From the NCBI RefSeq assembly GCF_000026545.1, contig NC_011601.1: a stretch of DNA of 64,000 nucleotides; one strand, 5' to 3'. Within the stretch, counting starts at the first letter, position 1. Each line of letters starts with the position of its first letter. The DNA comes from Escherichia coli O127:H6 str. E2348/69 (lineage in GTDB: Bacteria; Pseudomonadota; Gammaproteobacteria; Enterobacterales; Enterobacteriaceae). A program made the position numbers. Positions 61,901 to 64,000 of the stretch are shown here, one piece after another.

Positions 61901-64000
61901 CTTAACAAGCCGAAAGAGAAAGCAACCTGGCTTACAGGAGCCCCCAGCTTGGCAGAAAGCGCACCGTTAAACAGACTCCAGGTATAAACCGACCCCAGAG
62001 CAAACTGGGTAATGATAGTACCGATGAGTGTCAGCCAGCGAGTACGCTGATAATTTGAAGGTGTCATGGCAGTATTCCTGCAGTAATAAAAAGGAAAAAT
62101 CTCTGCTGACAACCATAACGAAGTGCGCTTTATGCCTGGGGAAAAACGGCATGAAATGCCATCAGAACGGAATGAAATGCATTAGTTCAGGAATGAATGA
62201 CTCGACAATTATTCGCCAAATTTATTATTTAGTAAGTTAGTCCCCACTATCGCCACATTAGTTGTTATTTATGGCTTTTAATTGTATCTATAATGTTAAA
62301 ATCTGGCACTAACCCCCATCGTATACAGATAGTCGCTATTGTTAGTGGTATTTTCTGCCTGAGATAGCGCAGCATAGGCAGCAATATTTTGATTGAGCAA
62401 CATATCAGCGCCTACGGTGACATCCAGCCAGTTGCCGTTCTGGTTTGTCGCCGTCATCCGGCTCAGGCCTGATTGCGCCTTCCAGATATTCTCGCCAAAT
62501 TGCTGGTTATAGCTGATTTGCGCCCAGGGTCGGAGATCGCCAAGCCGGGAGTCAACACGCCAGCCTAAGGTACTCACGCTGGCATGCCATAACGGCTCGG
62601 CCAGCGTGGTAGTACTGTCGCCAAACTCGTTATACATCGAGGTGGTTGTGCCATCGTAATGTAATGCCGCGACCGGGCCAGTTGTAACCTGCTCATATAA
62701 AGGAAAATTCCAGCCCATACTCATACTGCTGGTCACATCCACAGGGGTTTCTTCCGCCAGATTGACTTCCAGTCCCAGCGCCCTTTGGCTACTTTGAATA
62801 CGTTGCGACAAAATATCGTTGTAATCAGGTTGATGATCGCTATCCCAGGTGTAACGCTCTGTGGCATGTCCGGGTTGCGTATCAACGATATATTCTTGTT
62901 GCCAGGCGTAAGCTGTGTTGAGAAAAAAGGCACTGATTACCACGCTCGCAAGCAGGCAGGCTTAGCTGCCAGCGACCACCGCTTTTTTTTATGATCATTA
63001 ACACGACTCCAGGGAAGAGCCGAATTCGGCAATATTATTGTCATTGTATGAAGGATATCGGGCATAGTAGCCCTGTATTAAATATTGACTTTTTCACCGA
63101 TGCGTCAAGAAAAGCGGCTGAAATTTTTACGATCGGGTACATAGCGAGGGAAAGTATGGAACGTTGCGGCTGGGTGAGTCAGGACCCGCTTTATATTGCC
63201 TACCATGATAATGAATGGGGCGTGCCTGAAACTGACAGTAAAAAACTGTTCGAAATGATCTGCCTGGAAGGGCAGCAGGCTGGATTATCGTGGATCACCG
63301 TCCTCAAAAAACGCGAAAACTATCGCGCATGCTTTCATCAGTTCGATCCGGTGAAAGTTGCCGCAATGCAGGAAGAGGATGTCGAAAGACTGGTACAGGA
63401 CGCCGGGATTATCCGCCATCGTGGGAAAATTCAGGCAATTATTGGTAATGCGCAGGCGTACCTGCAAATGGAACAGAACGGCGAACCGTTTGCCGACTTT
63501 GTCTGGTCGTTTGTCAATCATCAACCACAGGTGACACAAGCCACAACGTTGAGCGAAATCCCCACATCTACGCCCGCCTCCGACGCCCTATCTAAGGCAC
63601 TGAAAAAACGTGGTTTTAAGTTTGTCGGTACCACAATCTGTTACTCCTTTATGCAGGCATGTGGGCTGGTGAATGATCATGTGGTTGGCTGCTGTTGCTA
63701 TCCGGGAAATAAACCATGATTCGGGAAGCGCAACGTTCAGAACTCCCCGCGATCCTCGAACTGTGGCTGGAAAGTACAACCTGGGGGCATCCCTTTATAA
63801 AAGCGAATTACTGGCGTGACTGCATTCCGCTGGTGCGGGATGCGTATCTTGCCAACGCGCAAAACTGGGTCTGGGAAGAAGACGGTAAGCTTCTCGGTTT
63901 TGTCAGCATTATGGAAGGCCGATTTCTGGCAGCAATGTTTGTCGCACCAAAGGCCGTCAGACGCGGTATTGGTAAGGCGCTGATGCAATATGTGCAGCAG

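What the first reader, a model, noticed from the sequence alone, without database searches (positions are those of the whole stretch)
62148..62181. Direct repeats matching a YpdB-type binding site in the yhjX promoter
GCATTTCAT - N11 - GGCATTTCAT lies about 80-115 bp upstream of the yhjX start on the coding strand, matching the YpdB motif as I recall it. The carbon-overflow-responsive control of yhjX therefore appears conserved even though the fimbrial island sits immediately downstream.
Basis: partly seen in the sequence, partly recalled or inferred. Interest (0 to 1): 0.25.

Follow-up and report, generated by a model that had tools for sequence, protein, structure and literature searches.

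The report
Known YpdB operator upstream of yhjX
The two repeats are the published binding site through which the pyruvate-sensing regulator YpdB switches on the transporter gene yhjX in E. coli; this copy is a common natural variant with one base changed, so the finding is correct but ordinary.

Summary
On the yhjX coding (minus) strand, TGCATTTCAT (62181-62172), 11 nt, then GGCATTTCAT (62160-62151) lie 84-114 bp upstream of the yhjX ATG (62067). The pair occurs once in the window and in none of 100 shuffles.

The window is 100% identical to E. coli E2348/69 over the 601 bp compared. The repeats are the published YpdB (PyrR) operator of the yhjX promoter: GGCATTTCAT-N11-GGCATTTCAT, with high-affinity site A upstream and site B downstream.

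The only difference from K-12 within the operator is G->T at position 1 of site A.
- This allele is in about 30% of complete E. coli genomes.
- It is identical in UTI89, where induction of native yhjX is lost in a btsS ypdB double mutant.
- The same 13-mer is the native site A in 25 of the 80 other enterobacterial genomes compared.

E2348/69 has intact ypdA and ypdB, and its YpdB is 244/244 identical to K-12's.

The lpf island lies 3' of yhjX and supplies yhjX's stop codon and terminator. It occurs independently of the promoter allele.

One addition: a third conserved block, GTCATTCATTCC (62201-62190), sits in the same 21-bp phase in 81 of 82 sequences. Its role is untested.

Verdict: already known, low interest.

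The parts
62172..62181 (-). YpdB site A, the upstream high-affinity site. It reads TGCATTTCAT here and GGCATTTCAT in K-12; the G->T change is at 62181. The conserved core extends 3 nt further, to 62169 (TCC).
   Evidence: Site A is defined in PMC4847170 by the oligo in which the upstream 10-mer is replaced. Conservation: positions 62180-62169 are kept in at least 77 of 82 sequences; position 62181 is G in 53 and T in 29.
62151..62160 (-). YpdB site B, the downstream low-affinity site next to the core promoter. It reads GGCATTTCAT, as in K-12. The conserved core extends to 62148 (GCC).
   Evidence: GCA, TCAT and GCC are kept in 81-82 of 82 sequences. Position 1 (62160) is T in 44, G in 30, C in 6 and A in 2.
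62161..62171 (-). The 11-nt spacer of the published motif. Its first 3 nt (TCC, 62171-62169) are near-invariant (81-82 of 82); the other 8 vary freely.
   Evidence: one search finds 53 distinct 8-nt spacer sequences among the 81 sequences that match the three-block pattern.
62190..62201 (-). Third conserved block, GTCATTCATTCC. It lies 21 bp upstream of site A when the TTCATkCC cores are put in register. It falls inside the DNase I-protected K-12 fragment. Its role has not been tested.
   Evidence: One search shows 12 positions, each kept in 65-82 of 82 sequences. One search finds the block-N8-siteA-N8-siteB pattern in 81 of 82. PMC4847170 Table 1 shows that the fragment includes the block.
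62143..62146 (-). A TTTT tract kept in 81-82 of 82 sequences, directly downstream of site B, in the region where a -35 element would lie.
62112..62117 (-). Inferred -10 hexamer TATGGT. Positions T1 and A2 are kept in 82 of 82 sequences, T6 in 80 of 82 and T3 in 71 of 82.
   Evidence: One search finds a TAnnnT 29-30 nt after the GCC of site B in all 80 sequences that carry the two-site pattern. This is an inference; it is not a mapped promoter.
62103..62105 (-). Conserved CAG, the inferred transcription start region. Taking +1 at about 62104 gives a 5' UTR of about 37 nt and puts site B at about -56 to -47 and site A at about -77 to -68.
   Evidence: 81-82 of 82. The position is inferred from its distance to the -10; it was not mapped here.
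60865..62067 (-). yhjX, an MFS transporter of the oxalate/formate antiporter family, 400 aa. It is the regulated gene.
   Evidence: 391 of 399 aligned residues identical to K-12 YhjX.
60819..60841 (-). Terminator-like hairpin followed by a T run, 24 nt after the yhjX stop codon. It separates yhjX from lpfA.
   Evidence: It lies in island-specific sequence.

Best explanation

Mechanism as established in K-12. Extracellular pyruvate is sensed by YpdA and, through cross-talk, by BtsS, and YpdB becomes phosphorylated. One YpdB monomer binds the upstream high-affinity site A (62181-62172 here). This allows a second monomer to bind the downstream low-affinity site B (62160-62151), one 21-bp period away and on the same face of the helix. 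The pair then recruits RNA polymerase to a promoter that lacks a usable -35 element, and yhjX is transcribed in a pulse.

What differs here. The window carries a common natural allele in which position 1 of site A is T instead of G. That position is not conserved among enterobacteria, so the allele is most likely fully functional.

Shown here: the sequence, its position, its conservation, and the presence of an identical regulator in the source genome. Taken from the literature: binding, the order of site occupancy, and the response to pyruvate. Inferred: that these properties carry over to this allele, and the positions of the -10 hexamer and the transcription start.
For: (1) The pair occurs once in the window and in none of 100 shuffles.
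(2) It matches the published GGCATTTCAT-N11-GGCATTTCAT at 19 of 20 motif positions. It matches the K-12 fragment described as covering all DNase I-protected nucleotides at 56 of 58 native positions (PMC4847170, Table 1 and text read).
(3) The window is E. coli E2348/69. That genome has intact ypdA and ypdB, and its YpdB is 244/244 identical to K-12 YpdB.
(4) The 74-bp promoter core is identical to the window in 1625 of 5422 E. coli genomes and matches the K-12 type in 3571 of 5417.
(5) UTI89 has the identical allele from about 210 bp upstream of the ATG down to the ATG. The acid-induced surge of native yhjX transcript in UTI89 is absent in a btsS ypdB double mutant (PMC9765748).
(6) In 80 other enterobacterial genomes the two sites lie upstream of yhjX with fixed spacing and no indels, while the spacers vary. 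TGCATTTCATTCC is the native site A in 25 of them.
(7) The consensus scan finds no sigma-70-like promoter between site B and the ATG, as expected for an activator-dependent promoter.
(8) Segregating natural yhjX promoter variants were reported to behave consistently in the environments tested, and the promoter to respond to pyruvic acid concentration (bioRxiv 10.1101/2021.07.18.452581).
Against: - No binding or expression data exist for E2348/69 itself.
- Site A is the site whose inactivation abolishes all YpdB-D53E binding in vitro (PMC4847170), so a change in it could matter in principle. The effect of this single substitution on affinity has not been measured in any paper I could read.
- The primary mutational study (Fried et al. 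2013, J Bacteriol 195:807) is not in the library.
- The plasmid reporter used in UTI89 was built earlier by the group that works on MG1655, so it probably carries the K-12 promoter. Only the RT-qPCR result there speaks for the T allele, and that mutant also lacks btsS.
Confidence: 0.9

Rival explanations
1. The site is the YpdB operator, but the G->T change at position 1 of the high-affinity site A makes this allele weaker or shifts its pyruvate threshold. Strains carrying the T allele, such as E2348/69 and UTI89, would then regulate yhjX quantitatively differently from K-12.
For: In vitro, site A must be occupied first, and inactivating it abolishes all binding (PMC4847170). The change is the only difference from K-12 within the two 10-mers. 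The allele forms a large class of genomes, 1625 of 5422.
Against: Position 1 is the least conserved position of the motif: G in 53 and T in 29 sequences at site A, and T in 44 and G in 30 at site B. Twenty-five other enterobacterial genomes have exactly this site A. Native yhjX in UTI89, which has the same allele, shows a clear induction surge that is absent in the btsS ypdB mutant. Natural promoter variants were reported to behave consistently.
Confidence: 0.12
2. The functional operator has three in-phase units, not two. The conserved block GTCATTCATTCC (62201-62190) would be a third weak YpdB subsite, or the site of another factor or a DNA-bending element, needed for full activation in vivo.
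For: The block is about as conserved as sites A and B. It shares the TTCATkCC core at exactly 21-bp spacing. The block3-N8-A-N8-B layout holds in 81 of 82 sequences without indels. The block lies within the fragment described as covering all DNase I-protected nucleotides (PMC4847170). That paper also says flanking nucleotides influence expression in vivo.
Against: SPR on the K-12 fragment detected only two binding events. With site A mutated (block 3 and site B intact) there was no binding. With site B mutated (block 3 and site A intact) there was a single event (PMC4847170). However, block 3 sat only about 7 nt from the chip-tethered 5' end (my count from the printed oligo), which could have hidden weak binding.
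Confidence: 0.3
3. The repeat is a chance or relic duplication with no regulatory role, or it is bound by the paralogous regulator BtsR rather than YpdB.
For: Single copies of the 9-mer are common in the window. BtsS/BtsR and YpdA/YpdB are functionally linked (PMC5552118, PMC9765748).
Against: None of 100 shuffles gives the pair. The sites are conserved across 82 sequences while the spacers vary. Published binding data are for YpdB, and the cross-talk described runs from the kinase BtsS to YpdB, not from BtsR to this DNA. From memory, not checked here: the BtsR operator of yjiY has a different repeat sequence.
Confidence: 0.02

Closest known systems
YpdB (PyrR) binding site of the E. coli K-12 yhjX promoter (Fried, Behr and Jung 2013; Behr et al. 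2016, PMC4847170)
   Same: It is the orthologous locus, with the same two 10-mers at the same 11-nt spacing and the same distance to the ATG. It matches 56 of 58 native positions of the K-12 fragment used for SPR. The regulator protein in the source genome is identical.
   Different: Position 1 of site A is T rather than G (62181), and there is one further substitution upstream of the third block (62202, A rather than C). The gene downstream of yhjX is lpfA rather than eptB.
Operators of LytTR-family response regulators in general (AgrA, ComE, VirR, PlnC/D, BtsR)
   Same: The architecture is shared: two direct repeats of 9-11 nt separated by 11-13 nt, lying just upstream of a weak core promoter (general description in PMC4847170).
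   Different: The repeat sequence is specific to YpdB. A third conserved in-phase block upstream is not part of the usual two-repeat description.
YpdB-type motifs deduced upstream of yhjX homologues in Enterobacter, Citrobacter and Yersinia (PMC5552118, Fig 3B)
   Same: That paper makes the same kind of cross-species conservation argument, and E. coli yhjX reporters responded to pyruvate in those hosts.
   Different: This analysis covers 80 genomes. It shows that the conserved unit is GCAyTTCATkCC: the first G of the published 10-mer is variable, and the three bases after it are invariant or nearly so.

Membership tests
YpdB/PyrR operator of the yhjX promoter | Direct repeat of GGCATTTCAT separated by an 11-bp spacer | tested here: met
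   TGCATTTCAT-N11-GGCATTTCAT at 62181-62151 on the minus strand, 19 of 20 motif positions. Motif as stated in PMC4847170.
YpdB/PyrR operator of the yhjX promoter | Located in the promoter region of the yhjX orthologue, at the K-12 position | tested here: met
   Site B ends 83 nt before the ATG in the window, in K-12 and in four of the five other Escherichia genomes retrieved. The gene is yhjX.
YpdB/PyrR operator of the yhjX promoter | Cognate YpdA/YpdB two-component system encoded in the same genome | tested here: met
   E2348/69 record NZ_CP059840.2 has ypdA (1698 nt) and ypdB (735 nt), neither flagged as a pseudogene. YpdB is 244/244 identical to K-12. ypdAB DNA covers at least 80% of the query in 5414 of 5426 E. 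coli genomes.
YpdB/PyrR operator of the yhjX promoter | Physical binding of (phospho-)YpdB and YpdB-dependent, pyruvate-responsive transcription | not testable with these tools
   Indirect support only. UTI89 carries the identical allele, and its native yhjX induction is absent in a btsS ypdB mutant (PMC9765748).
LytTR-type response regulator binding site (general architecture) | Two repeats of 9-11 nt separated by 11-13 nt, conserved in phase | tested here: met
   The repeats are 10 nt, the spacer is 11 nt and the period is 21 bp. No indels occur across 62206-62138 in 82 aligned sequences.

The most novel reading that the evidence does not exclude
The yhjX control region is a three-unit, 21-bp-phased array: GTCATTCATTCC, then kGCATTTCATTCC, then kGCAyTTCATGCC. 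The published description has two 10-mers. The upstream third unit is about as conserved across Enterobacteriaceae as sites A and B. It may be a third, cooperative YpdB subsite or a site for a second factor, and it could shape the pulsed expression of yhjX.
Probability: 0.3. Interest if true: 0.3.

Novelty: already known. Interest (0 to 1): 0.1.

Why it matters
It matters little beyond correct annotation. The result confirms that an EPEC strain keeps the pyruvate-responsive YpdB-to-yhjX circuit with its operator, regulator and target gene all intact.

It also yields three modest points:
- About 30% of complete E. coli genomes carry a T at position 1 of the high-affinity site, so the published 10-mer overstates the importance of that base.
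- The evolutionarily conserved unit is shifted by 1-3 nt relative to the published motif: it is GCAyTTCATkCC.
- A third in-phase conserved block exists and would be cheap to test by mutagenesis.

These points would refine motif models used to predict YpdB regulons.

Tried and rejected
- The primary paper defining the site (Fried et al. 2013, J Bacteriol 195:807; PMC3562098) is not held. The published per-nucleotide mutagenesis and the mapped transcription start, if reported there, could not be consulted. The motif and fragment were taken from PMC4847170 instead.
- A literature search for the lpf insertion site between yhjX and yhjW found nothing relevant. The island's identity rests on RefSeq annotation. 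That it corresponds to O-island 141 of O157:H7 is my recollection only.
- The sigma-70 consensus scan found no promoter between site B and the ATG. The -10 hexamer and the start site are therefore inferred from conservation alone.
- The relaxed conserved motif GCAYTTCATKCC, allowing 1 mismatch, finds only the two known sites in the 64 kb. There is no sign of extra YpdB sites, for example in front of lpfA.
- My first three-block regular expression had a spacing error and matched nothing. It was corrected.
- Considered and rejected: that the lpf island affects the yhjX promoter. It lies 3' of the gene, behind a terminator-like hairpin.
- Also rejected: that the T allele is linked to the island. 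All four combinations of allele and island exist.

Full report
**Observation.** Reading the window shows, on the minus strand...CTAA TGCATTTCAT TCCGTTCTGAT GGCATTTCAT GCCG.... The downstream copy GGCATTTCAT occupies 62160-62151. The upstream copy GCATTTCAT occupies 62180-62172 and is preceded by T at 62181. Eleven bases separate the two copies.

The exact pattern GCATTTCAT-N11-GGCATTTCAT occurs once in the 64 kb and in none of 100 dinucleotide-preserving shuffles. Single 9-mers with up to one mismatch are as frequent as chance predicts: 24 observed against 26.7 expected. An unbiased repeat search returns the same feature as a 15-nt direct repeat with a 21-bp period.

**Context.** A 601-bp stretch around the site is 100% identical to E. 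coli E2348/69. The RefSeq annotation of that record gives, on the minus strand, yhjY (frameshifted), yhjX (window 60865-62067), lpfA, lpfB, lpfC, a fimbrial protein gene, lpfE, then eptB and tRNA-Pro. In K-12, yhjX is followed directly by eptB.

[quoted passage not shown] It names the upstream copy site A and the downstream copy site B. It also prints the K-12 fragment, which it says covers all nucleotides protected in DNase I footprints. In that work:
- Phosphomimetic YpdB-D53E bound site A with about 1.2 nM affinity and site B with about 21 nM.
- Inactivating site A abolished all binding.
- Inactivating site B left a single binding event.

From this the authors proposed sequential 'AB-BA' binding that recruits RNA polymerase and gives pulsed expression.

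Aligning the window with K-12 shows only two differences within the native part of that fragment. One is G->T at position 1 of site A (62181). The other is C->A at 62202. Everything from 62180 down to 62128 is identical.

**Is the T allele unusual or defective?**
- Among complete E. coli genomes, the 74-bp core 62128-62201 is identical to the window in 1625 of 5422.
- The K-12 version is matched at 99% identity or better in 3571 of 5417. That query was offset by one base, so alignments clipped at the ends are included in this count.
- UTI89 carries exactly the window's allele from about 210 bp upstream down to the ATG.
- PMC9765748 reports by RT-qPCR that native yhjX in UTI89 shows an induction surge that is absent in a btsS ypdB double mutant.

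**Cross-species footprint.** I retrieved 80 loci encoding YhjX relatives (84-99% amino-acid identity) from species-representative enterobacterial genomes. I aligned their upstream regions with those of the window and K-12.
- Columns 62206-62138 contain no gap in any of the 82 sequences.
- At site A, positions 2-10 and the following TCC are kept in 77-82 of 82 sequences. Position 1 is G in 53 and T in 29.
- At site B, GCA, TCAT and the following GCC are kept in 81-82 of 82. Position 1 is T in 44, G in 30, C in 6 and A in 2.
- The 8-nt stretches between the blocks vary freely, with 49 and 53 distinct sequences.
- The window's site A with its extension, TGCATTTCATTCC, is the native sequence in 25 other genomes.

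The conserved unit is therefore GCAyTTCATkCC. The first G of the published 10-mer is not constrained. This makes a functional defect of the T allele unlikely.

**The regulator.** ypdA and ypdB are outside the window. In the E2348/69 record they are intact, and YpdB is 244/244 identical to K-12 YpdB. ypdAB DNA covers at least 80% of the query in 5414 of 5426 E. coli genomes.

**Core promoter (inference).** The consensus scan finds no sigma-70-like promoter between site B and the ATG. This fits a promoter that depends on an activator. Conservation singles out three elements:
- TATGGT at 62117-62112. Positions T1 and A2 are invariant, T6 is kept in 80 of 82, and T3 in 71 of 82.
- CAG at 62105-62103.
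- A TTTT tract at 62146-62143, kept in 81-82 of 82 sequences.

A TAnnnT lies 29-30 nt after the GCC of site B in all 80 sequences that carry the two-site pattern. Taking +1 at about 62104 places site B at roughly -56 to -47 and site A at -77 to -68. This was not mapped here.

**A third block.** GTCATTCATTCC (62201-62190) is about as conserved as sites A and B, with each position kept in 65-82 of 82 sequences. It shares the TTCATkCC core exactly 21 bp upstream of the core of site A. The layout block3-N8-A-N8-B holds in 81 of 82 sequences. The block lies inside the DNase I-protected fragment.

The papers I could read do not treat it as a site. The SPR data argue against strong independent binding: there was no binding with site A mutated, and one event with site B mutated. 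However, the block sat next to the chip-tethered end of the fragment. I regard a role in activation as possible (about 0.3) but unproven.

**The fimbrial island.** Homology to K-12 stops at window 54782 on the eptB side and resumes at 60872, seven bases inside the 3' end of yhjX.
- YhjX is 400 aa here and in O157:H7, but 402 aa in K-12; UTI89 has the same 1209-nt gene as K-12.
- The island supplies the last codon, the stop codon and a strong terminator-like hairpin at 60841-60819.
- The island does not touch the promoter.
- Allele and island are independent: K-12 has G and no island, O157:H7 has G and the island, UTI89 has T and no island, and E2348/69 has T and the island.
- The relaxed motif finds no further YpdB-like sites in the window.

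**Verdict.** This is the already described YpdB operator of yhjX, in a common natural allele. Interest is low. The only new points are the variable first base, the 3-nt extension of the conserved core, and the conserved third in-phase block.

Noticed in passing
window 62190-62201 (minus strand): A third conserved block, GTCATTCATTCC, lies 21 bp in phase upstream of YpdB site A. The layout is kept in 81 of 82 enterobacterial sequences with fixed spacing. The block is inside the DNase I-protected K-12 fragment, but the papers I could read do not describe it as a site.
   Followed up: partly
window 60819-60872: The junction of the lpf island on the yhjX side lies inside the last codons of yhjX; homology to K-12 ends at 60872. 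YhjX is 400 aa in the lpf-carrying strains E2348/69 and O157:H7, against 402 aa in K-12 (UTI89 has the same 1209-nt gene). The island supplies the stop codon and a strong terminator-like hairpin at 60841-60819.
   Followed up: partly
window 62296-62998 (minus strand): yhjY, an autotransporter beta-barrel domain protein gene, is annotated as frameshifted (a pseudogene) in E2348/69. It is intact in K-12 and UTI89.
   Followed up: no
window 60865-62067 (minus strand): RefSeq now names YhjX 'L-lactate MFS transporter'. The protein passes NCBIfam NF049980 (SfMCT) at 343.7 bits against a cutoff of 320. The experimental literature still calls it a putative pyruvate transporter of unproven function.
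   Followed up: partly
window 62218-62295: The distal half of the yhjY-yhjX intergenic region differs from K-12 at many positions, while the 100 bp containing the operator and core promoter are almost invariant. This agrees with a report that the yhjX intergenic region is among the more variable in E. coli.
   Followed up: no
L086 3519-6092 (O157:H7 strain PV15-279): lpfC carries an internal stop codon in O157:H7, whereas the E2348/69 usher gene (window 56638-59217) is intact.
   Followed up: no
L085 (E2348/69 record NZ_CP059840.2, 1490000-1539999): Near ypdAB in E2348/69, fryB has an internal stop codon and xapR is frameshifted. ypdA, ypdB and ypdC are intact.
   Followed up: no
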